Origin: Flavobacteriaceae bacterium
Lineage (GTDB): Bacteria; Bacteroidota; Bacteroidia; Flavobacteriales; Flavobacteriaceae
Direction: 5' to 3'
Assembly: GCA_965224465.1 (NCBI GenBank)
Contig: OZ245049.1
Coordinates: forward strand, 2,460,001 to 2,492,000
Length of the DNA: 32,000 bases
Numbering within the stretch: position 1 is the first letter of the stretch; each line of letters begins with the position of its first letter. A model generated the notes under the pieces. It saw nothing but the letters and a program-made list of their open reading frames with translations, did no database searches and had not been told where the DNA came from. A program made the position numbers and the translations under genes. Positions 5,455 through 23,401 of this stretch are shown piece after piece.

Positions 5455-7302
5455 ATGTGTGGAATTACTGGATATATAGGGTTTAGGCAAGCCTACCCTA
5501 TAGTTATAAAAGGATTACAACGTCTCGAATACCGTGGGTATGACAGTGCAGGAGTTATCACATACGATGCAAATGTACACGTGACAAAAACAAAAGGAAA
5601 AGTAAGTGACCTTATGGAGGTTGCCAAAAACGCAAACACCAATGGTACCTTAGGTTTTGGACATACACGATGGGCTACCCATGGTGTTCCAAACGACATC
5701 AATTCTCATCCACACGTATCTAACTCTGGAAACATAGTTATTGTACACAATGGAATTATTGAAAATTACGACAGTATTAAGCAAGAACTTAGTACTCGTG
5801 GCTATACTTTTCAAAGTGATACAGATACGGAAGTACTCGTAAATTTAATCGAAGACACCAAAAAACAAAACAACTGTTTATTGGGGCAGGCCGTTCAAAT
5901 TGCATTAACCAATGTAATAGGCGCTTATGCCATTGCTGTATTTGACAAGGAAAAACCAGACGAAATAATTATTGCTCGTTTAGGAAGTCCTATTGCTATT
6001 GGTATTGGAGAGAACAACAAAGAATTCTTTTTCGCCTCAGATGCTTCACCTTTTGTTGAATACACAAAAAACGTGATTTATTTAGACGATGAAGAACTTG
6101 CCATTTTAAAAGTAGGTCGTGAAATCAAAATACGCAAAATAAATGATGACAGCCCCGTAACTCCATACATTCAAGAACTTCAATTAAACTTAGAAGAAAT
6201 TGAAAAGGGAGGTTATGAACATTTCATGCTCAAAGAAATTCACGAGCAACCAGACGCCATACGAGATACCTTAAGAGGTAGATTGTTAGCAGATGAAGGA
6301 CTTATAAAAATGGGAAGTGTAGACGATCATTTGGACAAATTTACCAATGCAAACCGCATAATTATTGTGGCATGTGGTACCTCTTGGCATGCAGGACTCG
6401 TAGCTGAATATCTCTTTGAAGATTTTGCTCGCGTCCCTGTAGAAGTAGAATACGCCTCTGAATTTAGATACAGAAATCCTATTATTACTCGCAATGATAT
6501 TGTAATTGCCATTTCTCAATCTGGAGAAACAGCAGACACATTAGCCGCTATTAAATTAGCAAAATCAAAAGGAGCATTTGTATTTGGAGTCTGTAATGTA
6601 GTAGGTTCGTCTATTGCTAGAGAAACCGATTCTGGCGCGTACACACACGCTGGCCCTGAGATAGGAGTCGCATCTACCAAAGCCTTTACTACCCAAATGA
6701 CTGTGCTAGCATTGATGGCATTGAAAGTAGGGAAAGCAAAAGGAAACCTGTCACGTTCTATGTATCATTCTTACCTACAAGAATTAAGCTTAATCCCATC
6801 TAAGGTAGCAGAATTATTAAAGCAAAACGACATTATTAAAGAAATAGCTGCCATCTACAAAGACTCGCCTAATTGCTTGTATTTAGGACGTGGTTATAAT
6901 TTCCCAGTAGCCCTTGAAGGCGCTTTGAAATTGAAGGAAATTTCTTATATCCATGCAGAAGGATATCCCGCTGCAGAGATGAAACATGGACCTATTGCTT
7001 TGATTGATGAAAACATGCCTGTGGTAGTAATTGCTACACGTAAAGGACATTATGAAAAAGTAGTAAGCAATATCCAAGAAATAAAATCTAGAGAAGGAAA
7101 AATAATTGCCATTGTTACCAAAGGTGATACTACTGTAAAAGCAATTGCGGATCATGTTATTGAAATCCCAGAAACAGAAGAAGCTTTTACTCCATTTTTA
7201 ACAACAATTCCATTGCAGTTATTGTCTTACCACATTGCAGTAATGAGAGGTTGTAATGTAGATCAACCACGTAACTTAGCAAAATCCGTGACTGTAGAAT
7301 AA
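5455..7302 (+). CDS. glmS: Glutamine--fructose-6-phosphate aminotransferase (isomerizing)
   Basis: 615 aa starting MCGITGY (N-terminal nucleophile Cys), with two SIS domains (GTSWHA, SQSGETADT) and the C-terminal KSVTVE. Confidence 0.97.
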   Translation: MCGITGYIGFRQAYPIVIKGLQRLEYRGYDSAGVITYDANVHVTKTKGKVSDLMEVAKNANTNGTLGFGHTRWATHGVPNDINSHPHVSNSGNIVIVHNGIIENYDSIKQELSTRGYTFQSDTDTEVLVNLIEDTKKQNNCLLGQAVQIALTNVIGAYAIAVFDKEKPDEIIIARLGSPIAIGIGENNKEFFFASDASPFVEYTKNVIYLDDEELAILKVGREIKIRKINDDSPVTPYIQELQLNLEEIEKGGYEHFMLKEIHEQPDAIRDTLRGRLLADEGLIKMGSVDDHLDKFTNANRIIIVACGTSWHAGLVAEYLFEDFARVPVEVEYASEFRYRNPIITRNDIVIAISQSGETADTLAAIKLAKSKGAFVFGVCNVVGSSIARETDSGAYTHAGPEIGVASTKAFTTQMTVLALMALKVGKAKGNLSRSMYHSYLQELSLIPSKVAELLKQNDIIKEIAAIYKDSPNCLYLGRGYNFPVALEGALKLKEISYIHAEGYPAAEMKHGPIALIDENMPVVVIATRKGHYEKVVSNIQEIKSREGKIIAIVTKGDTTVKAIADHVIEIPETEEAFTPFLTTIPLQLLSYHIAVMRGCNVDQPRNLAKSVTVE

Positions 7303-10818: not shown

Positions 10819-11424
10819 AAATTATGGATCGACCATAGAAAAACATGCTTAAAAATACGCTTCGGTAAATTCTCCTGTAAAATAAGCCTTAAATTTACAG
10901 AAGGATCATCCCGTTTGCGGTGTATTCAAAAGTTTTACTTCCTAGAGATATAAAACAGCTTAATAAAACACAATCTGCATCAACATCGTGTTTTAAAGGT
11001 TCTTTCCAATACAGATAATTCGCTTAAATACATCCATTAAGTACTCATAACCGTTGTGTCATAAGCGAAGCGTATCCATAGCAATTATTGTTTATTTTGC
11101 TAGGTTAGAAGAATACTACTTAATTAGAGCCTTCCTTAATTCATGTTTTTAAAAAGCAGAAAAATAGGAGCCCACCCTTTAGGAGAACCATATAAACACA
11201 AACACCTAGAATTAAAACACAAAAAACACGTGCGTATAACTATTTTTTGTACATTTGATTACTGCTTATAGATATATACGTCTTAATAATTAAAATGACC
11301 CAATGCTACATCGTAGGTTAAATGGATATGACATCTTGTTTAGCACTGCTACTGTGAGAATATGGGATTTTAAGTAATTTAACGCACTCAAGCGGTAGAA
11401 CATAACATAAAAAACAAATAAATT

Positions 11425-11907
11425 ATGCCAGAAAGATCCGTAGCAACAGTAGGCAGCATGCATGTGTGTCCAATGTGTTCAGGAACTGTTCCTCATGTAG
11501 GAGGGACTATTATTCAAGGAGAGAGCAATGTTTTAGTAAATGGTAATCCCGTTGCAACTATGGGGAGTATATGTACTTGTATAGGTGCTATCGGCACAGT
11601 TATACAAGGTTCGCCCACTGTTTTTGTTAATGGTAAGCCTATTGCTTGTGTTGGTGATATGACCCAGCACGGAGGGATAATTACCTCAGGCTCTCCGAAT
11701 GTTTTTATAGGTAGCTCGCCGGAAACCCCTACAAAAACAAATAACCTTCAAGAGATAGCGTTTCCTGAAATCTCCTTAGTTAATAGGATACAAGCAGTGG
11801 TTACAGGTAATAATGATGCATTAAAAGAAGCAGCACAGAATATGGAGAAAATAAAAAATGAGGCTGATAAAAATGGTTTTTTAAACGCTATAGATTTTAG
11901 TTTTTAA
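11425..11907 (+). CDS. PAAR domain protein (spike-tip protein of a contractile injection system) with a C-terminal extension of about 60 aa
   Basis: The sequence VGSMHVCPMCSGTVPHVGGTIIQGESNVLVNGNPVATMGSICTC...GSPTVFVNGKPIACVGDMTQHGGIITSGSPNVFIG shows three PAAR-type repeats with the classic GDxxxHGGxIxxGSxxVxI ending. The stop codon is 2 nt before the next start. Confidence 0.85.
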   Translation: MPERSVATVGSMHVCPMCSGTVPHVGGTIIQGESNVLVNGNPVATMGSICTCIGAIGTVIQGSPTVFVNGKPIACVGDMTQHGGIITSGSPNVFIGSSPETPTKTNNLQEIAFPEISLVNRIQAVVTGNNDALKEAAQNMEKIKNEADKNGFLNAIDFSF

Positions 11908-11909
11908 CG

Positions 11910-14900
11910 ATGAAAGAAATTACACATCCTGAAAAAGGAAAAAAGGTAGGCGCTAAAGTTAGTTCTACAATTTTCGGCACATACCCAATAGGAAAATTTA
12001 ACACTTGGCACGGAGGCACACACTTAGAGAGTATGTCTGAATTAGTAGCCATTGCAGACGGTAGAATAATAGCCTATCAAATTACAGACAATTACGAATC
12101 CGTAGCTTTTGAAGGGAAAGACCAAGTGTATTCAAAATGCTTTGTACTAATACAGCACGACTACGTAATTAAAAAGACAGAGGACGATACTAAAGAAGGT
12201 AAACCTATTCGGTTTTATTCTTTTTATCAACATCTAATGCCTTTATCTAAAATAAAAAAAACAAATAAATTCCCTTACTTTTTCTGTGATAAAAAGCACG
12301 TTATCAAAGCTAAAGAACAGGTAAAGGGTGCTAAAATGTACAGGTTTATAAAGGGTAAAAAAACCGAAAAAACATTTATCCCTAATGGCACAACCATTAA
12401 GTTAAACAAAACGGATAAAGTCACAAAAAATAAACATTCCTATACTAGAGTAACTTCTGTTGATGGTATTGCTCTTACAAATAAACACTATATAAGTGAA
12501 AGTTTTATTGGTACAGATCTCATTAAAAAATATAGTTATGTACGTACAGAATATTATACAGACCCTAATAATGATACCAAAGGAGGGCGTATTCGTGAAA
12601 AGGCAAGTGGTACATCTAAAATTGTAAATCTAATCCCCTACGGAAAAGTGGTTGCTATAGATATGTCTACAAAAGATAAATCTTGGATAAAATTAGCCGA
12701 TGGTAGCGGGTATACTTTCAAAAAAAGTTTAGAATATAAAAGTGTATTAAATAATAAAAAAATCACAAAAGATAAAGTTATAGGTTGTGATATCCCTGTA
12801 AAAGCAAACCAAACCATTGGACATGCAGGAAAAAACGGCACTTTAGGATTCGAAAATTACAGAAACTGTCATTTTGAAATTTTTACGGATGCAAGTGATA
12901 GCGACCTAAAATATTTTATAAATAATAAAGCAAAAAACAGTTTTAAAACGCCTCGCTTTTTTGAAATAGAAAACGGAGCTAAGTTAAAAGCTAATATTGT
13001 TAAATCGCTTGATATCAGCGCTAATACCCCTATAAAAGTACTCAAGGTAAAAGATTGTTCGATAAAAGTAGAAATAATTGAAATTATGGCTACCATTGCG
13101 TATTCTGATGTAATTGATAATAATGACAAAGCGAGTAGTTACAACCTAAAAGCGGATACTTTTGACACGGTTAATACCGCTTTTAATAATACATTAAAAG
13201 TAACAGATAAACTCTATTATATAGAGCGTTGCGATGAAAGCGGTAAAAAAATATCTAATAAAGAAAACGACCAACGTATAAAGGATAAACTTGCCCAATA
13301 CAGAAATGTAAAGTTTAACCCTAAACATATAAAACAACTATTTTGGGTAAAGGAAACCGATATTGACGTATGTACAGCCGGTGAAAAAGGGAAAATTACA
13401 ACTGCTTTAACCCAAGTGTATATTTATGAGCCTAAAGATGAAACCGAAGATTTAACCATAAACGAAGCATTGCTTATAGAAAATAAAGGATTAAAAACCT
13501 ATACCAATAAAAGCACTAAAGAAAAATGGTATGCTATTACATGTAGCTATATAGAAAACAATAAATTGGTTAGTAAAAAAGGATGGATAAGTGAAAATAA
13601 CAGTAAGTTTACTGCAAAAAACCCACATAATTGGAAAGAGTTTGGTTTTGAAATTATAGATGCAGGAAAAGATTATGTATATGAGGTAGAAGGCTATAAT
13701 AGAGCAGAAAACAGTGGTGATTTTATTAACAAAATGTGGGAATTAATAGATACCGACGGCAACAAACGTATTAATAGAGTGGAGATAATTAATGCATTTT
13801 CAGATAGTAAAAAACTAAATAAAATAGCTAAATTTATCTGCAAGCACAAGAGTGAATGGTCGTACACTATTGATAAAATAAAAGAAGAAGCCGAGCAGTT
13901 TTATAAAATAGGAATAGACGAAGCTACAGGTATAAAAAAAGATAAATTAACCGAAAAAAAAGATAAACTTATTGATGTGTTTGTATCTAAATTAGAAAAT
14001 TTATTGTGTTGGAAAGAGATACAAAATGCCAACTATACACCACCTGTAATAAAACAGAAAACGAAAACAAAAGATACGTTTAGGTTTTTCCCTAAAGATT
14101 TTCAAGAAATTATTGATGATAAAGAACCGCAAAATTTATTTATAGAAGAAATGATGCAAATTATGGATGAAAAGAAGAAAGAAGAAGAAAAACCAAAACG
14201 TGTAGTGCCTAAAGGTGATGTGTTTCATTATTTTCATCCTATTGCTTTTTTACAGCATATGAAGTTGATTACTGCAACAAATGTTATTTATATTTATTCT
14301 GATGGCACAATTAGTAAATTAGATTTAAAAGGGCTTAACGAAATAACTTATGTCTATGTAAGTTCTAATGGTAAAGAATATAAAATTTGCACTTGTGAAT
14401 TATTAGAAATTGATGAAAGGTTAAAAGGAGTTGCACATGATCAAGCAACAGCTCATGCTGTTAAATCAGGATATGATGCTGGTAATATTGTGAGTTACTC
14501 TCATGCTTCCTCACGTAAAAAATATACATATCCCGATGGGACTATAAGAACTTACGGGAAATATGATGGAGAATTTAGACGAGTTGTTTATAATAAAGGA
14601 GCAAGAAAAACACACATAGTTAAACTTCCTAATGGATTAAATACAAAAGTAAATAATAAATCTGTGAAATTTGCATTTACATCAACAGCAAGAACATATT
14701 GTGGGCCTGAACATTTTGCTTGTTTTATAGGAGCTTTAACAGAAGTAGGTTATGCTGATATTGTTTCAGGAGGAATGTGTGAAGAGGACGGAACATGCTT
14801 TCCTAGTATATCGCACAATAATGGTCAGAGTGTTGATACTAGTTATTTAGATGATGATATTAGAGAACAAAACTTTATAAATGCTATGAATAAATTTGGA

Positions 14901-15011
14901 TTTGATGGTCAGCTTAGAGGTTATGCAAAGAAGAAATTTGATCATACGACTGCTAAATCTCATCACAATTCGCACCTGCATTCAGGGGTGTTAAAACCAA
15001 AATATAAATAG
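11910..15011 (+). CDS. Large polymorphic effector: split LytM/M23-like domain with an SH3b-like insertion, an unknown central region with an EF-hand-like loop, a K/E-rich linker, and a C-terminal LAS-type (HxxGxxxD...HxH) putative peptidoglycan peptidase toxin domain
   Basis: 1033 aa with no signal peptide. The M23-like blocks are WHGGTHLE, VAIADGRIIAY, FYSFYQHL and, about 190 aa later, VKANQTIGHAGKNG and NCHFEIF. GGRIREKASGTSKIVNLIPYGKVVAIDMSTKDKSWIKLADGSGY is SH3b-like. DTDGNKRINRVE is an EF-hand-like loop (13749-13784). The linker is DEKKKEEEKPKR. The C-terminal motifs are SHNNGQSVD (14811-14837) and HLH (14973-14981). Confidence 0.7.
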   Translation: MKEITHPEKGKKVGAKVSSTIFGTYPIGKFNTWHGGTHLESMSELVAIADGRIIAYQITDNYESVAFEGKDQVYSKCFVLIQHDYVIKKTEDDTKEGKPIRFYSFYQHLMPLSKIKKTNKFPYFFCDKKHVIKAKEQVKGAKMYRFIKGKKTEKTFIPNGTTIKLNKTDKVTKNKHSYTRVTSVDGIALTNKHYISESFIGTDLIKKYSYVRTEYYTDPNNDTKGGRIREKASGTSKIVNLIPYGKVVAIDMSTKDKSWIKLADGSGYTFKKSLEYKSVLNNKKITKDKVIGCDIPVKANQTIGHAGKNGTLGFENYRNCHFEIFTDASDSDLKYFINNKAKNSFKTPRFFEIENGAKLKANIVKSLDISANTPIKVLKVKDCSIKVEIIEIMATIAYSDVIDNNDKASSYNLKADTFDTVNTAFNNTLKVTDKLYYIERCDESGKKISNKENDQRIKDKLAQYRNVKFNPKHIKQLFWVKETDIDVCTAGEKGKITTALTQVYIYEPKDETEDLTINEALLIENKGLKTYTNKSTKEKWYAITCSYIENNKLVSKKGWISENNSKFTAKNPHNWKEFGFEIIDAGKDYVYEVEGYNRAENSGDFINKMWELIDTDGNKRINRVEIINAFSDSKKLNKIAKFICKHKSEWSYTIDKIKEEAEQFYKIGIDEATGIKKDKLTEKKDKLIDVFVSKLENLLCWKEIQNANYTPPVIKQKTKTKDTFRFFPKDFQEIIDDKEPQNLFIEEMMQIMDEKKKEEEKPKRVVPKGDVFHYFHPIAFLQHMKLITATNVIYIYSDGTISKLDLKGLNEITYVYVSSNGKEYKICTCELLEIDERLKGVAHDQATAHAVKSGYDAGNIVSYSHASSRKKYTYPDGTIRTYGKYDGEFRRVVYNKGARKTHIVKLPNGLNTKVNNKSVKFAFTSTARTYCGPEHFACFIGALTEVGYADIVSGGMCEEDGTCFPSISHNNGQSVDTSYLDDDIREQNFINAMNKFGFDGQLRGYAKKKFDHTTAKSHHNSHLHSGVLKPKYK

Positions 15012-15013
15012 AA

Positions 15014-15763
15014 ATGTATAAATTAATACAAATATTTTTTGCACTAGGGTTATTGACTAGTTGTCTTGATTCTAAAAATCACAAAGAAAAATTAAAAGAT
15101 AATAATTTAGCAGAAATAAAAGTAGAATTAACAGATAGCACCTCGTTAAGAGTAAAACAATTATCTAATTTCAACTTAAGTCAGTTATCATTAGGAAATG
15201 ATAAGATTACTGATAAAGAGTTTAGAGGCAAAAATAGTTTTTACATTAAAAAAGGAACAGATGTAGAATTAAATAATGAATTTATTTACTCTTCAAAAGG
15301 TGAAATTTTAAAAGATTATTTTCATAACTTTTATAAACCGACAGCTTTATCATCAGTTGAAGAAGATAAATATCCTTTATATGATGATAAAGATTATATT
15401 CAAAAAGTAGGTATTAAATCTTCAGGACTAGAAAATATTATAAAAAATAAAGATGGAGTATACTTATGTGTGTTTTTTGTAAATTTTAATTATGATAAAG
15501 AATATGAGTCTTTTATTAAACCTATCAGGTATTTAGTTTCTTTTGATGAAAATTTAAATATTTTGAATGAATTCACTCTTAGTTTTTTTTATGAAACAGA
15601 AACAAAGAGTTTCATAAAATTATTTTATTTAGATGAAAACTTAAATATTTACACTAATTATTACAGGAACAAAGAGGATAAAGACGGAAATATAAAGGAG
15701 ACCTTTTCAGACTTATATAGGTATACCGTATTGTCTAATGGTACAATTTCAGAGAAGAAATAA
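15014..15763 (+). CDS. Lipoprotein, candidate cognate immunity protein for the 1033-aa effector
   Basis: 249 aa with the lipobox LLTSC. It starts 2 nt after the effector stop. There is no recognisable enzymatic motif. Confidence 0.55.
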   Translation: MYKLIQIFFALGLLTSCLDSKNHKEKLKDNNLAEIKVELTDSTSLRVKQLSNFNLSQLSLGNDKITDKEFRGKNSFYIKKGTDVELNNEFIYSSKGEILKDYFHNFYKPTALSSVEEDKYPLYDDKDYIQKVGIKSSGLENIIKNKDGVYLCVFFVNFNYDKEYESFIKPIRYLVSFDENLNILNEFTLSFFYETETKSFIKLFYLDENLNIYTNYYRNKEDKDGNIKETFSDLYRYTVLSNGTISEKK

Positions 15764-16331
15764 ACCTTACGATTATACACTTCATGAGCATAGAGCTCCA
15801 ACTTTTGGGTATAGAAGAGGCACACCTAGTATAAGGCTACATGCTGCAAGAGATTTATATTATGATGCTGAAGAACCAATTTATGCAATAGCAGATGGTA
15901 CTACAAAAAGAGTTTATGAATTTTATCTCGACACTTATGCTATTGAAGTTGAACATAATTACGAGCACGTCAAAGGACATAAATTGTATGTCCGTTATGG
16001 AGAAGTAAGTAAGAATAATATTTTAGTAAAAGTCGGAGAAGAAGTAAAACAAGGAGACCAAATAGCCGAAATAGGTTTATTATATAGTAAGAAAAAAGAT
16101 AAGTATATTATTCAACCATACCCTGATAAAAGAGGCATGTTGCATTTAGAAATGTACACAGGTGAAGCAAAAGGAAAATTAACTGACAAAACAGTAAAGT
16201 ATACAGATATGCTTTATGCAAAATCAGACAAATACCACAAAGGACGTTCTTTTCAAAGGCGAAAAGATTTATTTGACCCATTACCTTTGTTAAAAATTAT
16301 GTATAACAATTCTAAATCTGATTTTAAATGA
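15738..16331 (+). CDS. Small M23/LytM-like protein without a signal peptide (candidate second effector)
   Basis: 197 aa. LHAARDLY (HxxxD), IYAIADGTT, YAIEVEH, VKVGEEVKQGDQIAEIG and MLHLEMY follow M23 block order. It overlaps the upstream ORF by 26 nt and the downstream ORF by 4 nt (ATGA). Confidence 0.6.
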   Translation: MVQFQRRNKPYDYTLHEHRAPTFGYRRGTPSIRLHAARDLYYDAEEPIYAIADGTTKRVYEFYLDTYAIEVEHNYEHVKGHKLYVRYGEVSKNNILVKVGEEVKQGDQIAEIGLLYSKKKDKYIIQPYPDKRGMLHLEMYTGEAKGKLTDKTVKYTDMLYAKSDKYHKGRSFQRRKDLFDPLPLLKIMYNNSKSDFK

Positions 16332-16891
16332 GAAATATAAAATATTTTTTAGTACTAGTAGTATCCCTTTTTTTTAGTTTGAATTCTTGTATAGAGAAAA
16401 AAACTAATGTTTCTAAATTAACAAATGATACAAAGGCTAATAAAACACCCAAAAAGGAAATAGTAAAGAAAAATAATCCTTTTAAATATATATACAATGT
16501 AGATTTGGTAGGAATGGAAGCTTCTGAAAAAATTAAAGACACTAAGCCTTATGAAAAATATTCTGTTGACTTTACAGCTGCTTGCTATTCTAGTAATCTA
16601 TTGAAAATAAGAATAAACAATGAGATTGTATCAATCTCAAACTATAACGATTCGAGAATTGAACAATCATTTCATATTAGTGATACAAAAATCCAAAATG
16701 ATAGTTTAATAATTGAATCAAATTCTCCAAATTATTTTAAAATAATAATTGTAAAAGTAAAAAATGCTCAGGTTTACTCTTTAGAGTATAAAGGTAATTT
16801 AGAAATAGATGTAAAAATGAGTAAATTTATTTCAAGAGAAACTGACCTTTTTAAATTTGGAGGTATCGATTGTGATGATTTTGGAGGATAA
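16328..16891 (+). CDS. Lipoprotein, candidate immunity protein for the small M23-like protein
   Basis: 187 aa with the lipobox SLNSC. Its start overlaps the stop of the M23-like gene. Confidence 0.5.
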   Translation: MRNIKYFLVLVVSLFFSLNSCIEKKTNVSKLTNDTKANKTPKKEIVKKNNPFKYIYNVDLVGMEASEKIKDTKPYEKYSVDFTAACYSSNLLKIRINNEIVSISNYNDSRIEQSFHISDTKIQNDSLIIESNSPNYFKIIIVKVKNAQVYSLEYKGNLEIDVKMSKFISRETDLFKFGGIDCDDFGG

Positions 16892-16899
16892 GAGCTAGA

Positions 16900-17518
16900 T
16901 TGTGAACAAGATAAAAAAGTAAAGCCACAGTTTAAAAAGCTGTGATATTATGGTTTGTAAATTAAATTTGTTTTTATGAATAACGCTCAATTAAGTAAAT
17001 TATTTAATCCCGATGTTACGGTCTTACTGGACAGGGTAAAAGTGACTGATAAAGATATTAATGTGCATTTACTTTATGCATTGTGTAATGCTGTTAAATG
17101 TTCAATTTCAATAGAAGAGTTTAACCCTTCTATTTATATTGAAGATGTTAATAATCAAATTGCATTTAACAATCAACTAAACATAGAGGCTCCAGAAAGT
17201 ATTAAAGCATCTTTTATAACTACATTTAGGGTAGATTTTATCTATGATGATAATTTAAACAATCATGTATACTGTTTTTTTAAAACGCAACCTTATATCA
17301 CCAATAACGATTGCCCTGTTGAAATCGTTAATTTCAATAAATCCTTATTAGAATTAACACCAAACGATTGCTTACGGTATGTAAATAGTAAATTAAAAGA
17401 ACTCTATCCTAACTTATGGGACGATACATTAAACATTTCTATAAATATAACATTGCATCACTACCAAGCAGCAAAAAACAAGTGGAAAATAATAACACCA
17501 ATATCTGATTAAAAATAA
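16900..17518 (+). repeat. 619-bp direct repeat, copy 1 (contains the 178-aa ORF and 76 bp of its upstream region)
   Basis: Aligns base for base with 21398-22016 at a constant offset of 4498 nt. Only a few substitutions are visible. Confidence 0.9.
16976..17512 (+). CDS. Hypothetical cytoplasmic 178-aa protein, copy 1 of the repeated gene
   Basis: Intact ORF with no signal peptide and no motif I recognise. The paralog at 21474-22010 differs at 4 of 178 residues. Confidence 0.6.
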   Translation: MNNAQLSKLFNPDVTVLLDRVKVTDKDINVHLLYALCNAVKCSISIEEFNPSIYIEDVNNQIAFNNQLNIEAPESIKASFITTFRVDFIYDDNLNNHVYCFFKTQPYITNNDCPVEIVNFNKSLLELTPNDCLRYVNSKLKELYPNLWDDTLNISINITLHHYQAAKNKWKIITPISD

Positions 17519-17532
17519 TATTAAGAAGTATT

Positions 17533-17666
17533 TCAACAAATTATATAGGAAAGCTTTAGATATATACTTTAATAAAAAGGGTATACGAACAAGGAAGACC
17601 TATGGTGTTGAAAAACACATTCAAATGTGGACTTCTAAATAGTCGGATTTATTAGTTGAATTTAAG
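17533..17666 (+). repeat. 134-bp junction repeat, copy 1
   Basis: The stretch TCAACAAATTATATAG...TTATTAGTTGAATTTAAG recurs at 18754-18888 with scattered substitutions and one 1-nt indel. Confidence 0.85.
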
Positions 17667-17746
17667 CATGTCTAAATTCTATGATTTTAAAATATACACT
17701 AAAGACATACCTCAAAGTAAAAGATCTAACTCTTAATAAAGATAAA

Positions 17747-18643
17747 ATGAAACCTTATTATTTAATTATATTAATTTTCTGTTCATGTAAAGAAAAGTCA
17801 GAAAATAAAATTAACGAAAGTCATACAATAATAACTACTCTAGAGGTGCATGAAGAAACCTCTTCTATAGTGATTCCTAAAAGATCTCAAGAAAAAATTG
17901 GTTTAATAAATGATACTGATGGTTATACGAACGCACGTAAAGAACCTTCATCATCTTCTGAAATTTTATTTAAAATATTAGAAGATGAATATTTTATGTA
18001 TACTTCTATAAAAGAATCAAATTGGTCTGAAATACAAACTCTTGATAATAAGGTCGCTTATGTACATAATAGTAGAATAAAAAAAGTAAATCCAAATAAT
18101 GTGATTACTTTTTTTAGTGAATATTATGATGAGGATGAAGAAAAAGACAAGCTTATAAAAAATATTATAACAATAAAATCACTGGATGAATCAAAAGCTT
18201 TTTCTATAAAGGAATTTCCATATTCTAAATTAAAGATTGTTAGTATATCCAATGATACTCTAATTTTATTAAGTGATGACAAAAAAATATCTATTGAAGT
18301 TATAGCAGGTCTTTTTGAAAAAGAGAAGCATTCAATTGAATACAATGAAAATAATTACGTCAACAAAATTGATTCGAAAAATATTTATGGAAATGACCAA
18401 GTACCAGTTAGAGAAATTAAGCAAATAATAATTCAGAAGGATGACATTAAATTTGAGTTAGACACAAAAGTTTTTAGTAATTTATATGAACCAAATTTTG
18501 AACATCTTAATGTTTATATAAAAGGAAATAATCAATTAATTATGTCTATGACAAATGGACATGGAGCAATAAATTCTTATAAATCAATTTTAATATTTGA
18601 TAATTCAAATCTATTAAAACACATAACCTATATTCCTTTTTAA
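17747..18643 (+). CDS. Lipoprotein with an SH3-like N-terminal domain (start taken at the internal ATG that gives a lipoprotein signal peptide)
   Basis: MKPYYLIILIFCSCKEK provides the lipobox. GLINDTDGYTNARKEPSSSSEILFKILEDEYF...WSEIQTLDNKVAYVHNSRI is SH3b-like. The track ORF starts at 17681, but 17747 gives a canonical signal peptide. Confidence 0.55.
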   Translation: MKPYYLIILIFCSCKEKSENKINESHTIITTLEVHEETSSIVIPKRSQEKIGLINDTDGYTNARKEPSSSSEILFKILEDEYFMYTSIKESNWSEIQTLDNKVAYVHNSRIKKVNPNNVITFFSEYYDEDEEKDKLIKNIITIKSLDESKAFSIKEFPYSKLKIVSISNDTLILLSDDKKISIEVIAGLFEKEKHSIEYNENNYVNKIDSKNIYGNDQVPVREIKQIIIQKDDIKFELDTKVFSNLYEPNFEHLNVYIKGNNQLIMSMTNGHGAINSYKSILIFDNSNLLKHITYIPF

Positions 18644-18753
18644 GTTTAGTATGGAATCCAATGTTATTGAAAAAGTTATACATACTGTTTAAAAAAAACG
18701 CATCCTTATAATACCAATATCCAATTAAAAACAATTTAAATAACGATAGCATG

Positions 18754-18888
18754 TCAACAAATTATATAGCAAATCTTTAGATATACACTTTAACAAAAAT
18801 AGTATACGAACAAGGCAAACCTATGGTATTGAAAAAAGACATTCAAATGTTGACTTCTAAATAGTCGCATTTATTAGTTGAATTTAAG
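18754..18888 (+). repeat. 134-bp junction repeat, copy 2
   Basis: Homologous to 17533-17666. It lies immediately upstream of the orphan toxin module. Confidence 0.85.
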
Positions 18889-18932
18889 ATGGGAAATATG
18901 GAAGAAAAGAAGAAGAAAAACCAAAACGCGTA

Positions 18933-19808
18933 GTGCCTAAAGGTGATGTGTTTCATTATTTTCATCCTATTGCTTTTTTACAGCATATGAAGTTGATTAC
19001 TGTAACAAATGTTATTTATATTTATTCTGATGGGACAATTAGCAAATTAGATTTAAAAGGGCTTAGCGAAATAACTTATGTCTATGTAAGTTCTAATGGT
19101 AAAGAATATAAAATTTGCACTTGTGAATTATTAGAAATTGATGAAAGGTTAAAAGGAGTTGCACATGGGCAAAAAATAGCTCATACCATCGAGTCAGGTT
19201 ATGATTCTAGTAATATTGTTACTTATGCACATGCTTCTTCTCGAAAAAAATATACTTATCCAGATGGCACTATAAGAACATATGGTCCTTACGATGGAGG
19301 TTTCAGAAGAGTTGTTTATAAAAAAGGCGCAGAAAAAAAACGAATTATTAAAATGCCTAAAAAAATTGGTGTTAAAATTGATAATAATAAAGTAATTGCA
19401 TTTAAGTTTACAGGCACAGCAAGAACTTATTGTGACCCAGAAGTTTTCGCTGGATTTATAGGTGTCTTAGGTGAAACAGGATATCCATCTACAGATATAA
19501 TATCGACAGGTATGTGTGAAGAAGACGGAACATGCTTTCCTAGTATTACCCACAATAATGGGCAAAGTATAGATATTAAATACCTTAAGAAAAATGGTGG
19601 TATAACAAGTTACATGTACAATAAGGATTTTGATAAAGTTAGAATGCAAAAAATTGTTGATGGATTTGTTAAATTTAATTTTAAATATTTAGCGGCATGG
19701 AAAGATTCTGAAGGTAAGCTGATGACTAATACAAAGAAAGTATCTCATCACCATCATCATTTTCATGCAGGTAATTTAAATAAAACAAAAATAAGAAGAA
19801 ATGATTAA
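18933..19808 (+). CDS. Orphan C-terminal toxin module, paralog of effector residues 766-1033, with no ATG start (probably silent unless recombined)
   Basis: The first 235 nt are nearly identical to 14205-14439. After that the module diverges but keeps THNNGQSID and HHHHHFH (the HxxGxxxD and HxH motifs). The frame opens only after a TAA at 18885-18887. It has no in-frame ATG, and the first possible start is the GTG at 18933. Confidence 0.7.
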   Translation: MPKGDVFHYFHPIAFLQHMKLITVTNVIYIYSDGTISKLDLKGLSEITYVYVSSNGKEYKICTCELLEIDERLKGVAHGQKIAHTIESGYDSSNIVTYAHASSRKKYTYPDGTIRTYGPYDGGFRRVVYKKGAEKKRIIKMPKKIGVKIDNNKVIAFKFTGTARTYCDPEVFAGFIGVLGETGYPSTDIISTGMCEEDGTCFPSITHNNGQSIDIKYLKKNGGITSYMYNKDFDKVRMQKIVDGFVKFNFKYLAAWKDSEGKLMTNTKKVSHHHHHFHAGNLNKTKIRRND

Positions 19809-20475
19809 AATAATATTTAAATTTTTGATAGTGTTTTTTTTGATAAGTTCATGTAAGACGAAAAAAGAGGAACTTAAAAAATCAGCTCAAATTTCATCTA
19901 ATAATTACGAAAAAGATAAAGTACCTTATTTAAAACTTCCAATAGATTATTCTTTTGAAAGAAACAAAAAAAATATTAAAGGAGATGTATTTTATAATCA
20001 ACGAGTAAAAATAAACACAAAAATAAATAATAATTTCAGTTTTATTAGTGAAAAGAATAATCTAAATATTGAAAATGAAATATGTAAAAAGTATAAAGAA
20101 AAATGCAATTCATATTTTACAGAATTTGATTATTCTAAAACGTACAAAATTCAAAATGATTTTGATTTTGATCTTTATTTAATTACTTCCAAATTCAGTT
20201 ATTACTTAAATTTAATATCAATTAAAGACGATAAAGTCATAGATTTATTGAATGTTTATTTAAATTACGTTGATTATGAAGGTCAAGAATGTATCTATCG
20301 AAACTTCTCTGTTGACAAGGATCTTAATGTTTCTATTTTTAATTATATCTATTTTGAATCTACAGGAGAAGTTGAAGAAGACAATAATGAAGCTGATTCC
20401 ATAAACATATATCCACCTGCTACTTTAAAACAAGAATTGTATACATTAACAAAAGAAGGATTATTCAGCAGATGA
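19801..20475 (+). CDS. Lipoprotein, candidate immunity protein for the orphan toxin module
   Basis: 224 aa with the lipobox LISSC. Its start overlaps the orphan toxin stop by 8 nt. Confidence 0.55.
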   Translation: MIKIIFKFLIVFFLISSCKTKKEELKKSAQISSNNYEKDKVPYLKLPIDYSFERNKKNIKGDVFYNQRVKINTKINNNFSFISEKNNLNIENEICKKYKEKCNSYFTEFDYSKTYKIQNDFDFDLYLITSKFSYYLNLISIKDDKVIDLLNVYLNYVDYEGQECIYRNFSVDKDLNVSIFNYIYFESTGEVEEDNNEADSINIYPPATLKQELYTLTKEGLFSR

Positions 20476-20490
20476 TTTTACGTAAAATGA

Positions 20491-20759
20491 TTAAAAGCAG
20501 AAGAAGAAGAAGAAGAAGAAGAAGAAGAAGACTGGGGTATACCGTCAGTAAATAATAATTTAAAACAGGTATGACTCATGGTTTTGGTTGGAAAAGAGGA
20601 CACTTTGGATTAGAACCAGAAAAATTTAACAATGGAGGTTCAGGGGCGACAACTTGGGTTCATTTAGATGTTAGGGAATTTGGGAAAGTAAACCTTAATG
20701 AAAAATTATTCGTTAAAAAACAAAGCTTAATAATTGGAAAAAAACTAACAGAATATTAA
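20491..20759 (+). pseudogene. Degraded third orphan toxin remnant: poly-Glu linker, then a frameshifted fragment ending in a WVHLDVRE motif (M15A-like C-terminus)
   Basis: The linker frame (20491-20574) has no start codon and ends at the TGA at 20572-20574. The 62-aa ORF at 20571-20759 is in a different frame and reads GFGWKRGHFG...GGSGATTWVHLDVRE. That resembles the C-terminal fVHvDvR block of peptidase M15A/DUF882. The upstream HxxxxxxD block is missing. Confidence 0.4.
20500..20529 (+). repeat. (GAA)10 trinucleotide microsatellite
   Basis: Ten perfect GAA units counted in the sequence. They lie in an open frame reading LKA(E)10DWGIPSVNNNLKQV followed by a stop. Confidence 0.95.
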
Positions 20760-20763
20760 AACT

Positions 20764-21369
20764 ATGAAAATGAAAATTGTTTTATTATTTTTTGTCTTAA
20801 TTTTTGGAATATCTTGTAAAGACAAAAACAAAAATAACACATCAATAAAATTAATTACTAGCACTAATAGTCTCATTGAGAACGCTGTAACTGAGAAGTC
20901 AGGACAAAAAAACAATTGTTTAAAGAGTGATGTTAAACCTCTGAAATTGCCAATTGATGGAGGAGAAAACCTTATGTCTTTTACAATTGAAAATGATATA
21001 GAATTACAAGTGTTAAAATGTGATGTAAGTATAATAAAATCTAAATTATGCAATACTGATTTTATAAGTTATTATTCTCTGCCTAATAAAAATGATTTAA
21101 ATCCAATAATTATAGCAGATGAATATGGAGATAATAATAATAGTTACACTTTAGTTATTCATAAAGAGGATAAAATAACCGATTTTGTCCTACTATATAA
21201 TTCTTGGATTGAAATGTCAGAAAACCCAAAAAAAGAAATTACAGATTTTAAAATATCTAAGGAATATGAAATAATTATTTCAAAACAAGAATATAAAAAT
21301 AATATCCAAACAAAACAAGAATCAATTAATTACCAAATTGATAAAAACGGGAAACTATTAATTCAATAG
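20764..21369 (+). CDS. Lipoprotein, candidate orphan immunity protein
   Basis: 201 aa with the lipobox FGISC. It shares the LKLPID motif and a C-terminal Y-x-[IL]-x-K-x-G-x-L type ending with the 19801-20475 lipoprotein. Confidence 0.5.
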   Translation: MKMKIVLLFFVLIFGISCKDKNKNNTSIKLITSTNSLIENAVTEKSGQKNNCLKSDVKPLKLPIDGGENLMSFTIENDIELQVLKCDVSIIKSKLCNTDFISYYSLPNKNDLNPIIIADEYGDNNNSYTLVIHKEDKITDFVLLYNSWIEMSENPKKEITDFKISKEYEIIISKQEYKNNIQTKQESINYQIDKNGKLLIQ

Positions 21370-21397
21370 TCACCTCCAGCTGTCGCAATCGTCTCGC

Positions 21398-22016
21398 TTG
21401 TGAACAAGATAAAAAAGTAAAGCCACAGTTTAAAAAGCTGTGATATTATGGTTTGTAAATTAAATTTGTTTTTATGAATAACGCTCAATTAAGTAAATTA
21501 TTTAATCCCGATGTTACGGTCTTACTGGACAGGGTAAAAGTGACTGATAAAGATATTAATGTGCATTTACTTTATGCATTGTGTAATGCTGTTAAATGTT
21601 CAATTTCAATAGAAGAGTTTAACCCTTCTATTTATATTGAAGATGTTAATAATCAAATTGCATTTAACAATCAACTAAACATAGAGGCTCCAGAAAGTAT
21701 AAAAGCATCTTTTACAACTACATTTAGGGTAGATTTTATCTATGATGATAATTTAAACAATCATGTATACTGTTTTTTTAAAACGCAACCTTATAACACC
21801 AATAACGATTGCCCTGTTGAAATCGTTAATTTTAATAAATCCTTATTAGAATTAACACCAAACGATTGCTTACGGTATGTAAATAGTAAATTAAAAGAAC
21901 TCTATCCTAGCTTATGGGACGATACATTAAATATTTCTATAAATATAACATTGCATCACTACCAAGCAGCAAAAAACAAGTGGAAAATAATAACACCAAT
22001 GTCTGATTAAAAATAA
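21398..22016 (+). repeat. 619-bp direct repeat, copy 2
   Basis: Matches 16900-17518 at a constant offset of 4498 nt. Confidence 0.9.
21474..22010 (+). CDS. Hypothetical cytoplasmic 178-aa protein, copy 2 of the repeated gene
   Basis: Intact ORF. It differs from copy 1 by I81T, I108N, N146S and I176M. Confidence 0.6.
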   Translation: MNNAQLSKLFNPDVTVLLDRVKVTDKDINVHLLYALCNAVKCSISIEEFNPSIYIEDVNNQIAFNNQLNIEAPESIKASFTTTFRVDFIYDDNLNNHVYCFFKTQPYNTNNDCPVEIVNFNKSLLELTPNDCLRYVNSKLKELYPSLWDDTLNISINITLHHYQAAKNKWKIITPMSD

Positions 22017-22134
22017 GCTAAATTCAATAGTAACCTCCCGCTGTCGCAAGCGTCTCGCTTGAGAACAAGATAAAGAAACGAAGCCTCAGTTTAAAAAGCT
22101 GTGATATTATGGTTTGTAAATTAAATTTGGCTTT

Positions 22135-22245
22135 ATGAATAACACTCAATTAAGTAAATTATTTAATCCCGATGTTACGGTATTACTGGACAAGGTAAAA
22201 GTGTCTGATAAAGACATCAATGTGCATTTACTTTATAGGTTATAG
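22135..22245 (+). pseudogene. Truncated third copy of the repeated 178-aa gene (36 codons)
   Basis: MNNTQLSKLFNPDVTVLLDKVKVSDKDINVHLLY is followed by RL and a stop. Homology to copies 1 and 2 starts in the upstream region near 22021 and ends abruptly at 22236, 26 nt from the next gene. Confidence 0.8.
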
Positions 22246-22261
22246 GACTATAATAACACTA

Positions 22262-23401
22262 CTAAGCATTGTATTTTGCTTTCCGAAGCACTCGCATTAC
22301 TTCTTTAAAATTAACATAAGAAGTAAGGTCTTCTAACTTTTTTAAATAGGGCTTGGCAGCTTCCAAATAAGGCAATGCATCTGGCATATTATTAAGAATA
22401 CAAATCATATACTTAGTAGGTAAATCGTGAAGCTGATTTTGTTCATCAACGGACAAGCAAACACCTTGTTTTAAAAGACCTATCAAGTAATTGTTTTGTT
22501 TAAAAATAGCTGTTAAAATTGACTTATTATACTGAGGTGGCTCAAACAAAAACTCCTCTGCAATTTTATAATGACCATTGTTTTTAAAATGAATTACTTT
22601 TTTCTCCAAAGGATACAATCGCTGTACTTCATCAATACCTAACAACACGTATTCTGTACAAATAAACGAATGCTTATTTTGTGTTATTTGCACAAAGTCC
22701 ATCGCGGAGTAAAAAAATCGATTGTTCTCATTGATCAATTCTATATCCACCCTAGAATAATATATTTTTTTATGAATCCGATGTTTCTGCCCTGCCCAAC
22801 AAAGAACAAATTGCTCATGAAACACAGTATAAGAAGGCTCAAACCCATGATGACGATCCATAAAATCAAAAACACCATCTAGGGTTAATTTAATATTATT
22901 ACTCGCCATTTTCTCTATAGCTTTAACGGTATCCCTATTTTGACTGGTCATTTTCTGTTCTAAAAGATACGGCATAGAGTTGCTTCCTTTCCTATAAAAG
23001 AACAATCCTTTGGTGTATTTCCAGCATTGTTTACTCAAACAAGTAGTTTCTGCATTGGCAAAAATAGTAACAAGTCCGACTACCTTATGTCTAGGAAGTC
23101 CGGGAAAATGGACATTCTCGTATATAATTCTTGGAGGATTTACAAAATAAGAATTTACCAAATTTTGAATTTTACTATCATCATAAAAATCAACCCCTAC
23201 AATTTGGTTCGTAGCATCCTCCACTCCTATTACCAAAAAAGAATTATTGTTAGGATTTGAGTTAGACAAGGCACAAATATGTTTTAAAAATTTTGCCTTT
23301 CCTTCGGTTTGGTGCAAGCTGATTTTACGCTTTTTATCATAAAAACAATTTTCATCATTATGAGCAAGTAGATTTCTTATAAGGAGTCGCTTGTTAATCA
23401 T
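22262..23401 (-). CDS. AlbA_2 / Schlafen-like divergent AAA-type putative nucleic-acid-binding protein
   Basis: 379 aa. The N-terminal ...HNDENCFYDKK...FLKHICALSNSNPNNNSFLVIGVEDATNQIVGV resembles the AlbA_2 signature (E..EfK ... icAfaNt.GG.l.iGV.d.g.i.Gv). Its ATG overlaps the SDR stop by 1 nt (TGATG). Confidence 0.5.
   Translation of the reverse strand: MINKRLLIRNLLAHNDENCFYDKKRKISLHQTEGKAKFLKHICALSNSNPNNNSFLVIGVEDATNQIVGVDFYDDSKIQNLVNSYFVNPPRIIYENVHFPGLPRHKVVGLVTIFANAETTCLSKQCWKYTKGLFFYRKGSNSMPYLLEQKMTSQNRDTVKAIEKMASNNIKLTLDGVFDFMDRHHGFEPSYTVFHEQFVLCWAGQKHRIHKKIYYSRVDIELINENNRFFYSAMDFVQITQNKHSFICTEYVLLGIDEVQRLYPLEKKVIHFKNNGHYKIAEEFLFEPPQYNKSILTAIFKQNNYLIGLLKQGVCLSVDEQNQLHDLPTKYMICILNNMPDALPYLEAAKPYLKKLEDLTSYVNFKEVMRVLRKAKYNA

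What the first reader, a model, noticed from the sequence alone, without database searches (positions are those of the whole stretch)
16900..22236. Three direct copies of a 619-bp unit encoding a conserved 178-aa unknown protein bracket the orphan array
Copies 1 (16900-17518) and 2 (21398-22016) are collinear at a fixed 4498-nt offset. They differ by only 4 amino acids and both ORFs are intact, which suggests recent duplication, gene conversion or selection. Copy 3 (22021-22236) retains the upstream region plus 34 codons and then stops at the island edge. It also retains the last few nucleotides of an immunity-gene 3' end (compare AATTCAATAG at 22021 with the stop region of 20764-21369), implying that a whole cassette was deleted there. 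Recombination between copies 1 and 2 would excise or duplicate the 4.5-kb orphan block. The protein has no signal peptide and no motif I can name. It may be a cytoplasmic immunity protein, a chaperone, or a cassette-delimiting gene.
Basis: seen in the sequence. Interest (0 to 1): 0.7.

Follow-up and report, generated by a model that had tools for sequence, protein, structure and literature searches.

The report
Repeated unknown gene in toxin array
The three repeats are real, but they are best read as the conserved downstream end of stacked toxin-immunity blocks in a type VI secretion island, reshuffled by recombination and an IS30 insertion sequence; the 178-aa protein belongs to a small undescribed family whose function is still unknown.

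Summary
U1 (16895-17518) and U2 (21393-22016) differ at 9 of 624 nt and 4 of 178 aa. U3 (22019-22236) keeps the leader plus 34 codons at about 92% identity.

- The full module is about 0.77 kb: leader, gene, a roughly 105-nt tail, and a solo left end (IRL) of an IS30-family insertion sequence (17631-17666; 18853-18888).
- A fourth, 3'-only remnant lies at 18708-18888.
- U pairs with a second interleaved repeat, the effector pre-toxin region (14178-14841 / 18906-19578).

The island therefore holds two alleles of one "effector C-terminus ... U" block in tandem.

Unrelated sequences abut the exact outer edge of the IRL three times. One of them is the truncation point of the orphan toxin. This implicates IS30 transposase.

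A conspecific metagenome contig (L001) carries imm201-3'-end / U / tail / IRL / SH3-3'-end next to an active-looking IS30 at another locus. That is the junction order expected of a U1xU2 circle or amplification.

The 178-aa protein looks real: dN/dS is about 0.3 and there are 10 remote homologues. It has no hit in any family or structure library, and its homologues mostly lie outside toxin loci. "Cassette-delimiting gene" holds as local anatomy, not as a demonstrated function. Interest is moderate to low.

The parts
11425..11907 (+). PAAR protein (160 aa), start of the T6SS effector island
   Evidence: Pfam PAAR_motif, E=1.8e-29. The upstream 221 nt (11231-11451) are 94% identical to the leader of a second PAAR island in a conspecific contig, L081.
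11910..15011 (+). Main effector (1033 aa). Its C-terminal ~270 aa form the toxin domain.
   Evidence: The ORF lies immediately after PAAR. The C-terminus is 70.8% identical to orphan ORF 18933-19808. No Pfam hit. A VanY/LAS-like SxHxxGxxxD...HxH motif was seen by eye only (inference).
14178..14841 (+). Left conserved arm (pre-toxin and early toxin region), copy A
   Evidence: Repeat families D2 (94% over 300 nt) and D4 (81%), spacing 4728-4737.
15014..16891 (+). Lipoprotein-like immunity ORF (249 aa), free-standing M23 peptidase ORF (15738-16331) and lipoprotein-like ORF (187 aa)
   Evidence: ORFs. Peptidase_M23, E=2e-8. Lipobox-like N-termini (LLTSC, SLNSC) read from the translations.
16895..17518 (+). 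U1: leader plus intact 178-aa gene (ORF 16976-17512)
17519..17666 (+). Tail (~105 nt, hairpin-prone) ending in a solo IS30-family left inverted repeat (IRL, 17631-17666; 19-nt tip 17648-17666)
   Evidence: Repeats D3/D5. The tip is identical to the outer end of verified IS30-family elements. Fold z-score is -2.6.
17681..18643 (+). SH3_3 lipoprotein ORF (probable start at the Met at 17747); orphan immunity-like gene
   Evidence: SH3_3, E=1.1e-6. Its last 50 nt reappear directly after the IRL in L001.
18708..18888 (+). u': fourth, 3'-only remnant of the module (last ~20 nt of the 178-aa gene, then tail and solo IRL at 18853-18888)
   Evidence: 84% identical to L001 9872-10052, E=5e-52. Alignment. 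Motif hit.
18889..19808 (+). Orphan effector C-terminus. It is truncated exactly at the IRL outer edge, has a 7-nt gap/frameshift in its linker, and the first in-frame start is GTG at 18933. Right copy of the left arm is 18906-19578.
   Evidence: It is 83% DNA-identical, together with the next gene, to a Cellulophaga baltica VgrG-PAAR island.
19801..21369 (+). Lipoprotein-like immunity ORF (224 aa), 62-aa toxin fragment (20571-20759) and lipoprotein-like ORF (201 aa, 20764-21369)
   Evidence: The last 82 nt of ORF 20764-21369 precede U in L001.
21370..22016 (+). U2: full leader (with a small GC-rich stem-loop) plus intact 178-aa gene (ORF 21474-22010). No tail or IRL.
22019..22236 (+). U3: last ~10 nt of a lost immunity gene, leader and the first 34 codons; truncated at the island edge
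   Evidence: It was called as a 36-aa protein, P0002, in public data.
17098..17146 (.). 49-nt imperfect palindrome inside the 178-aa gene (also at 21596-21644)
   Evidence: These are the only such palindromes in the 32-kb window, against 0 in 20 dinucleotide shuffles. The palindrome is not conserved in remote homologues.

Best explanation
The repeats are copies of a ~0.77-kb module: leader, 178-aa gene U, a ~105-nt tail, and a solo left end (IRL) of an IS30-family insertion sequence. This module forms the conserved downstream end of a variable T6SS block made of effector C-terminus, immunity, second toxin and second immunity.

The ~11-kb low-GC island contains two alleles of that block in tandem. 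The order is arm A (14178) - variable p - U1 - q - arm A' (18906) - variable r - U2. Relics of at least two more blocks (u' and U3) are also present.

**Shown**
- The interleaved conserved arms with unrelated immunity genes between them.
- The fourth remnant.
- IS30 IRL tips whose exact outer edge abuts three different sequences, including the truncation point of the orphan toxin.
- A conspecific strain in which a piece of the array with an intact U sits beside a complete IS30 at another locus.

**Inferred**
- Blocks were stacked by homologous recombination in the conserved arms, through insertion of a second allele or a circular intermediate rather than replacement.
- Blocks were then cut down by IS30-transposase-mediated adjacent deletions and by illegitimate deletions (the U2/U3 joint and the U3/core joint).
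- As 624-bp direct repeats at 98.6% identity, U1 and U2 can now delete, amplify or circularise the 4.5-kb block. Arms A and A' can likewise fuse the main effector to the orphan toxin.

U encodes a real, mildly constrained cytoplasmic alpha/beta protein of an undescribed family restricted to a handful of (mostly marine) Bacteroidota sequences. Its role in the array is most likely that of a conserved flanking gene, a homology arm, and not a dedicated toxin partner. Its biochemical function is unknown.
For: - **Repeats and coordinates:**
- **Interleaved second repeat:** effector versus orphan C-terminus at 94% DNA identity over 300 nt and 70.8% amino-acid identity over 250 residues, while the immunity ORFs are unrelated.
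- **Fourth remnant:**
- **IRL tip is a true IS30-family end:**
  - The 19-mer occurs twice in the window against 0.19 expected and 3 times in L001.
  - A GTDB genome scan gave at least 65 stretches, mostly Bacteroidota, often near contig ends, sharing the extended consensus AAATCTAAAAGTTGCA+tip.
  - The tip lies about 125 nt outside the start of IS30 transposase genes (NF033563, E=1e-86).
  - A matching IRR is present.
- **Junctions at the exact IRL edge:** 17666|SH3 leader, 18888|effector linker, L001 10051|SH3 3' end and L001 9170|imm201 3' end. Deletions starting at an IR edge and insertion next to IRs are documented for IS30 (PMC9333248).
- **L001 is conspecific:** 99-100% protein identity in shared genes. 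It is collinear with sister contig L081 up to the IS30 insertion in a HATPase_c_3 gene. In L081 that gene is intact and followed by a second PAAR island.
- **Island character:** GC 25-31% against 33-38% in flanks made of housekeeping genes.
- **U is a real gene:**
  - 10 non-synonymous to 8 synonymous changes among copies; dN/dS about 0.3, P=0.014.
  - 10 remote full-length homologues with invariant P51, N65, I70, H161 and W170.
  - AlphaFold model with pLDDT 80 and pTM 0.80 from that alignment.
- **Related array:** the Cellulophaga baltica VgrG-PAAR-effector-orphan array shares the orphan toxin/immunity pair, lacks U and ends in IS debris.
Against: - No strain with a single block ending in U next to the core gene was found, so "U is the ancestral downstream flank" is inferred from one genome plus one fragmentary contig.
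- U2 and U3 lack the tail and IRL, so not all joints are IS30-made.
- A solo IRL cannot transpose alone, and no IS30 copy lies in the window.
- Three intact, constrained copies could instead reflect selection for U dosage or function.
- Two unrelated family members (window, L068) both sit at the distal edge of PAAR islands. That may be more than coincidence.
Confidence: 0.55

Rival explanations
1. U-tail-IRL is a non-autonomous, IS30-mobilised passenger element. IS30 transposase supplied in trans uses the solo IRL to move or copy the 178-aa gene. It scatters copies through the array and to other loci, and the toxin blocks are bystanders.
For: - Three different right-hand junctions lie at the precise IRL tip.
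- An intact U lies at a second chromosomal locus in a conspecific strain, 260 nt from a complete IS30 and bounded on both sides by IRL tips.
- IS30 is known to join distant IRs and to target IRs (PMC9333248).
Against: - No inverted partner end (IRR or inverted IRL) lies upstream of any U. A search with 3 mismatches found none in the window, and all IRLs are in direct orientation.
- U2 and U3 have no IRL.
- The L001 copy carries flanking pieces of array genes (imm201 and SH3 3' ends). Array DNA was therefore moved or deleted, not a discrete element.
- Remote homologues have no IS30 ends nearby.
Confidence: 0.2
2. U is a functional component of each toxin block and is kept in several intact copies by selection. 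It could be a cytoplasmic orphan immunity protein, an effector chaperone or adaptor, or a regulator.
For: - Two intact copies in the window plus one in L001, with dN/dS about 0.3.
- Each surviving block ends with U or a relic of it.
- A 27%-identical homologue (P0010) also lies at the distal end of a PAAR/Het-C effector island.
- Other homologues sit next to ParE toxins or integrases, as orphan immunity genes often do.
Against: - The toxins here look periplasm-acting. The evidence is an M23 hit and an LAS-like motif seen by eye. The neighbouring immunity candidates are lipoproteins, whereas U has no signal peptide.
- Known adaptors lie upstream of their effector.
- There is no match to any Pfam, NCBIfam, PADLOC or PHROG family or to PDB folds.
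- Most remote homologues are solitary genes in housekeeping-like neighbourhoods.
- The related C. baltica island has no U.
Confidence: 0.15
3. The repeats are an assembly duplication or collapse artefact.
For: Near-identical repeats in a low-complexity, AT-rich island are a classic place for assembly errors. No read data were available here.
Against: - The copies differ at 9 positions and have four different flank combinations.
- The source is a 5.24-Mb contig.
- An independent contig carries a third, distinct allele of U with the same tail and IRL.
Confidence: 0.03

Closest known systems
Orphan toxin/immunity modules downstream of Rhs, CDI and T6SS effector genes (polymorphic toxin loci)
   Same: A full-length effector with immunity is followed by 5'-truncated toxin C-termini. 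These keep homology to the conserved region just before the toxin domain, and each is followed by its own immunity gene. Direct repeats allow recombination to swap or delete modules. That recombination with orphans activates them in Rhs loci is established knowledge recalled from memory and was not tested here.
   Different: The block also has a conserved 3' arm made of an intact duplicated gene (U). The orphan's 5' truncation point coincides with an IS30 end rather than a plain recombination scar.
Recombinase-associated acquired interbacterial defence clusters (rAID-1) of Bacteroidales and, more loosely, integron cassette arrays
   Same: Arrays of orphan immunity or toxin-fragment genes in Bacteroidota with skewed GC and repetitive sequences between genes (bioRxiv 10.1101/471110).
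   Different: No XerD-like or any tyrosine recombinase lies in or beside the island. The repeat is a 0.6-0.8-kb gene-bearing module present only at block ends, not a short motif between every gene. The array hangs on a PAAR effector gene.
IS30-family transposition products (IR-targeting, deletions starting at an IR edge)
   Same: Solo IRLs match genuine IS30 ends. Several unrelated sequences abut the exact IR tip. Tandem IRLs lie 62 nt apart next to a complete IS30 in L001 (PMC9333248).
   Different: No transposase gene or IRR is in the window. The activity is inferred from scars only.
Cellulophaga baltica CP009887 VgrG-PAAR-effector island (L080)
   Same: Same layout of PAAR, large effector, immunity and orphan fragments. 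Its orphan toxin/immunity pair is 83% DNA-identical to window 19164-20465. The array ends in IS elements.
   Different: No U gene and no IS30 IRL. Its IS debris belongs to the IS3, IS4 and IS1595 types.

Membership tests
Polymorphic-toxin orphan array (T6SS PAAR effector island) | PAAR/VgrG-linked full-length effector followed by an immunity gene | tested here: met
   PAAR_motif, E=1.8e-29, directly upstream of the 1033-aa ORF. A lipoprotein-like ORF follows.
Polymorphic-toxin orphan array (T6SS PAAR effector island) | Downstream 5'-truncated toxin C-terminus that shares the conserved pre-toxin region with the main gene and is followed by a different immunity gene | tested here: met
   18889-19808 versus 14153-15011: 94% DNA identity over 300 nt and 70.8% amino-acid identity. 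imm249 and imm224 are unrelated.
Polymorphic-toxin orphan array (T6SS PAAR effector island) | Toxic activity and specific neutralisation by the adjacent gene | not testable with these tools
   Only an M23 Pfam hit for ORF 15738-16331 and a LAS-like motif seen by eye.
rAID-1 / integron-like immunity array | 5' XerD-like tyrosine recombinase (or integron integrase) | tested here: not met
   Pfam scans of the larger window ORFs, those that look like genes, found no Phage_integrase or recombinase.
rAID-1 / integron-like immunity array | Short repetitive recombination-site-like sequence between successive genes | tested here: not met
   Repeats occur only at block ends and are 0.14-0.77 kb long. 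There is no common motif between every gene.
IS30-family insertion sequence | Terminal inverted repeats of the family | tested here: met
   17631-17666 and 18853-18888 match the IRL of elements that carry NF033563 transposases.
IS30-family insertion sequence | Transposase gene and a second, inverted end (complete or MITE-like element) | tested here: not met
   No transposase homology in the window. No IRR or inverted IRL within 3 mismatches. These are solo ends.
Known T6SS adaptor/chaperone or immunity protein families (DUF4123, DUF1795, DUF2169, Imm/SUKH families in Pfam) | Significant match of the 178-aa protein or its relatives to the family model | tested here: not met
   No Pfam or NCBIfam hit for U. 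No consistent hit for 13 family members at E<=1. The PDB profile search gave nothing below E=0.15. Foldseek gave nothing significant.
Anti-phage defence or phage protein families | Match to PADLOC or PHROG models | tested here: not met
   Only chance-level hits. No relatives in viral contigs.

The most novel reading that the evidence does not exclude
U is not a passive flank but the working 3' anchor of a recombinase-free cassette-exchange system. A conserved gene at the end of every toxin-immunity block, carrying its own 49-nt palindrome and a tail with an IS30 end, would let whole blocks leave as circles and re-enter other PAAR islands of the species. This would work by homologous recombination or through IS30 transposase supplied in trans. 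L001 would be a captured intermediate at a second PAAR locus. Alternatively, U is the first member of a new cytoplasmic orphan-immunity or T6SS-accessory family with a fold not present in the PDB.
Probability: 0.12. Interest if true: 0.6.

Novelty: new member of a known kind. Interest (0 to 1): 0.35.

Why it matters
If the reading is right, this island is a clear worked example of how T6SS effector repertoires in marine Flavobacteriia grow and shrink. Conserved arms on both sides of a variable toxin-immunity core allow alleles to stack. An IS30 element does the cutting that creates "orphans". That gives testable predictions: deletion, circle and effector-fusion junctions should be detectable in long reads. 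The 178-aa protein is a rare, undescribed family with a confident model and no structural relatives, which makes it a modest target for structure and function work. Nothing here overturns current views of polymorphic toxin loci.

Tried and rejected
**Function of U**
- Pfam, NCBIfam, PADLOC and PHROGs searches for U and for all 13 family members gave nothing.
- PDB sequence and profile searches gave nothing.
- The single-sequence AlphaFold model was useless (pLDDT 35).
- The alignment-based model was good. Foldseek against the PDB and BFVD still gave only E>=0.3 / E>=0.011 and TM<0.31, with weak RNase-H/ASKHA-like partial hits that I do not trust.

**More relatives and contexts**
- The word-indexed protein search finds only the near-identical L001 copy. 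Run with the profile, it finds only 3 proteins.
- My degenerate DNA pattern found nothing in JGI metagenomes.
- The single-protein scans of viral and metagenome contigs found no relatives.

**RNA and signals**
- No Rfam family and no tRNA in the window.
- The sigma-70 promoter and terminator scan was uninformative.
- The leader fold is no better than shuffles (z=-0.28).
- The tail hairpin has z=-2.6, but only 3 copies exist and there is one compensatory pair, so it is inconclusive.

**Ideas rejected**
- A composite transposon or MITE, because there is no inverted end.
- rAID or integron, because there is no recombinase.
- Gene conversion between U1 and U2, because the SNP pattern is explained more simply by a three-way star tree.
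- PDB hits of the orphan toxin, because they are His-tag artefacts from its HHHHH run.

- In one search my minus-strand coordinates cut off start codons, so four look-ups were wasted.
- The window's own contig could not be retrieved.

Full report
**1. Observation**

The repeat finder reports a three-copy family with 4498-nt spacing. Reading the sequence and aligning the copies gives:
- U1 is 16895-17518 and U2 is 21393-22016. They differ at 9 of 624 positions. Seven differences are in the ORF: 4 amino-acid changes and 3 synonymous.
- U3 (22019-22236) is 91-92% identical. It keeps the leader and 34 codons.
- U3 is preceded by AATTCAATAG, the 3' end of an immunity-type ORF as at 21360-21369.
- U3 stops 26 nt from the stop codon of the convergent core gene 22262-23401 (SLFN_AlbA_2/DUF5929).

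The window comes from a 5.24-Mb contig. The copies have private SNPs and different flanks, and an independent contig carries a third allele. An assembly artefact is therefore very unlikely.

**2. Setting**

The flanks are housekeeping genes: panCD, glgA, glmS and ThrE on one side; an SDR, a TPR protein, bactofilin and ATP synthase on the other. Between about 11.2 and 22.2 kb the GC content falls to 25-31%, against 33-38% outside.

The island runs in this order:
- A PAAR gene (E=1.8e-29) and a 1033-aa effector, then a lipoprotein-like ORF.
- A free-standing M23 peptidase ORF and a second lipoprotein-like ORF.
- U1.
- An SH3_3 lipoprotein ORF.
- A 5'-truncated copy of the effector C-terminus (70.8% amino-acid identity), its own lipoprotein-like ORF, a 62-aa toxin fragment and another lipoprotein-like ORF.
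- U2 and U3.

There is no recombinase, tRNA or Rfam element. A Cellulophaga baltica VgrG-PAAR island (L080) has the same layout. It shares the orphan toxin/immunity pair at 83% DNA identity but has no U.

**3.

(a) *The module is longer than 619 bp.* U1 is followed by a 148-nt stretch (17519-17666). This stretch recurs at 18748-18888 (repeats D3/D5) and after the U copy on contig L001.

(b) *There is a fourth relic.* Region 18708-18747 is the last ~20 nt of a U gene and the sequence just after its stop codon (84% to L001, E=5e-52).

(c) *The 148-nt stretch ends in an IS30-family left end.* It ends in TTTATTAGTTGAATTTAAG.
Most are Bacteroidota, often several per genome and often near contig ends.
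- Oriented flanks show a shared extension, AAATCTAAAAGTTGCA, on one side and unrelated sequence on the other.
- On the conserved side, about 125 nt in, lie genes for IS30-family transposases (NF033563, E=1e-86).
- A related right end, AAAAGTTGCATTTGTGACTTGAATTCAG, closes those elements.
- The window therefore holds two solo IS30 left ends (IRLs). It has no transposase and no inverted partner end.

(d) *U interleaves with a second repeat.* The effector pre-toxin region repeats at 14178-14841 and 18906-19578, with spacing 4728. The architecture is therefore A-p-U1-q-A'-r-U2: two alleles of the same block with conserved ends (94% and 98.6%) and unrelated middles.

**4. Evidence for IS30 activity**

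The exact outer edge of the IRL (...TTTAAG|) is joined to different DNA at each occurrence:
- The leader of the SH3 gene (17666|17667).
- The effector linker region (18888|18889). Homology to the main effector starts at the very next bases. The orphan's truncation point is therefore an IS30 end.
- In L001, the last 50 nt of the SH3 gene (10051|10052).

A further IRL tip in L001 (9152-9170) abuts the last ~82 nt of the coding sequence of ORF 20764-21369. A complete IS30 sits 62 nt upstream of that tip. Deletions that start at an IR edge, joining of distant IRs, and insertion next to existing IRs are all documented behaviours of IS30 (PMC9333248).

**5. The L001 contig**

L001 is from the same species: shared genes are 99-100% identical at the protein level. 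It is collinear at 99.4% with a sister contig, L081, from the same metagenome assembly. Collinearity ends where an IS30 interrupts a HATPase_c_3 gene at codon 354. In L081 that gene is intact and is followed by a second PAAR plus CHAP-effector island.

In L001 the order after the IS30 is IRL, 62 nt, IRL | imm201 3' end - U - tail - IRL | SH3 3' end. The flank combination is copy 2 upstream and copy 1 downstream. It could equally be an ancestral order.

U1, U2 and the L001 copy form a star (9, 11 and 8 differences). At all seven sites that distinguish U1 from U2, L001 matches one or the other. Private mutations explain this more simply than gene conversion does.

**6. The 178-aa protein**

- *It looks like a real gene.* Changes among the copies run 10 non-synonymous to 8 synonymous, giving dN/dS of about 0.3 and P=0.014.
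- *It is rare.* The word-indexed search of 5.8 billion proteins finds only the L001 copy. An exhaustive HMMER pass over 1.84 billion cluster representatives finds ten full-length relatives of 176-194 aa at 23-32% identity.
- *It has conserved positions.* P51, N65, I70, H161 and W170 are invariant. P12, L36, D57 and C100 are nearly so.
- *It is cytoplasmic.* There is no signal peptide or transmembrane segment.
- *It matches no known family.* No match in Pfam, NCBIfam, PADLOC, PHROGs or PDB sequences.
- *Its fold has no known relative.* With the 13-sequence alignment, AlphaFold gives a confident alpha/beta model (pLDDT 80, pTM 0.80). Foldseek finds nothing significant in the PDB or BFVD.

Contexts of the relatives:
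- One (P0010) lies at the distal end of a PAAR/Het-C effector island, behind an IS3 relic.
- Two lie near ParE toxins, integrases or a primase.
- Three are solitary genes in housekeeping-like neighbourhoods.
- The others are on contigs too short to judge.

There is no conserved neighbour. U is therefore not an obligate toxin-cassette partner, and its function is unknown.

**7. Mechanism proposed**

*Shown:* the block structure, the conserved arms, the IS30 scars and the relocated fragment.

*Inferred:*
- Alleles of the "effector C-terminus ... U" block were stacked by homologous recombination in the arms.
- IS30 ends then produced the 5' truncations.
- Ordinary deletions trimmed u', the U2/U3 joint and the island edge.

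Direct repeats of this size and identity predict ongoing deletion, amplification and circularisation of the 4.5-kb block. The A/A' pair predicts effector switching.

Rivals and their weights:
- IS30-mobilised passenger element: 0.2.
- Functional toxin partner (immunity, chaperone or regulator): 0.15.
- Assembly artefact: 0.03.

**8. Comparison and verdict**

The island meets the sequence-level definition of a polymorphic-toxin orphan array. It fails the rAID/integron definition because there is no recombinase and no per-gene repeat (10.1101/471110). It holds only solo ends of an IS30 element.

The novelty is limited to three things: a duplicated intact gene serving as the 3' arm, an IS30 end at the orphan's truncation point, and an undescribed protein family. 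I rate it a new member of a known kind, interest 0.35.

Noticed in passing
window 14178-14841 and 18906-19578: The main effector and the orphan toxin share a 94%-identical 300-nt stretch, 4728 nt apart. Recombination there would delete U1 and the SH3 gene and fuse the effector N-terminus to the orphan toxin, which is a toxin switch.
   Followed up: partly
window 17648-17666 and 18870-18888; L002-L066: The 19-mer TTTATTAGTTGAATTTAAG is the outer tip of an IS30-family element spread across Bacteroidota (Polaribacter, Tenacibaculum, Kordia, Flavicella, Ichthyobacteriaceae, Cyclobacteriaceae, Chlorobiota MAGs). Many solo copies and contig-end copies occur.
   Followed up: partly
window 17098-17146 and 21596-21644: A 49-nt imperfect palindrome (24-nt arms, 1-nt spacer, 20/24 paired) lies inside the 178-aa gene, over codons 41-57. 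These are the only such palindromes in the window, against none in 20 dinucleotide shuffles. The L001 allele has one more paired position. It is not conserved in remote homologues.
   Followed up: partly
window 17519-17640: The tail after U1 folds into a long imperfect hairpin (-28.6 kcal/mol, z=-2.6). With only three copies the pairing support is inconclusive.
   Followed up: partly
window 11231-11451; L081 12867-13084: The 221 nt upstream of and into the PAAR gene are 94% identical to the leader of a second PAAR island in the same species. This may be a shared promoter or a 5' homology arm for PAAR islands.
   Followed up: no
window 20497-20530 and 20571-20759: An (AGA)n purine run of about 34 nt precedes a 62-aa ORF ending ...GATTWVHLDVREFG. 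This looks like the C-terminal scrap of a LAS/M15-type peptidase (by eye; no database hit).
   Followed up: no
window 15738-15763: The M23 peptidase ORF overlaps the preceding lipoprotein ORF by 26 nt and has no delivery domain. It is a free-standing second toxin or an orphan.
   Followed up: no
window 19770-19790 (orphan toxin C-terminus): A natural HHHHH run (SHHHHHFH) in the orphan toxin pulls His-tagged PDB entries as false hits.
   Followed up: yes
L001 7964-9170 versus L081 10569: In one haplotype of the same metagenome an IS30 interrupts a 663-aa HATPase_c_3 gene at codon 354. The sister haplotype has the gene intact, followed by a PAAR + 1264-aa CHAP effector island ending at an IS66 transposase.
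   Followed up: partly
L068 8844-9029 (minus strand): A C-terminal scrap of an rve-type (IS3-like) transposase lies between a PAAR/Het-C effector block and the remote U homologue P0010. This is another case of IS debris at the distal edge of a PAAR island.
   Followed up: no
window 5455-7302: GlmS and four other window proteins checked are alone in their 90%-identity clusters among about 15 billion proteins. The source genome appears to be the only sequenced representative of its species-level lineage. Its nearest named relatives seen here are Cellulophaga.
   Followed up: partly
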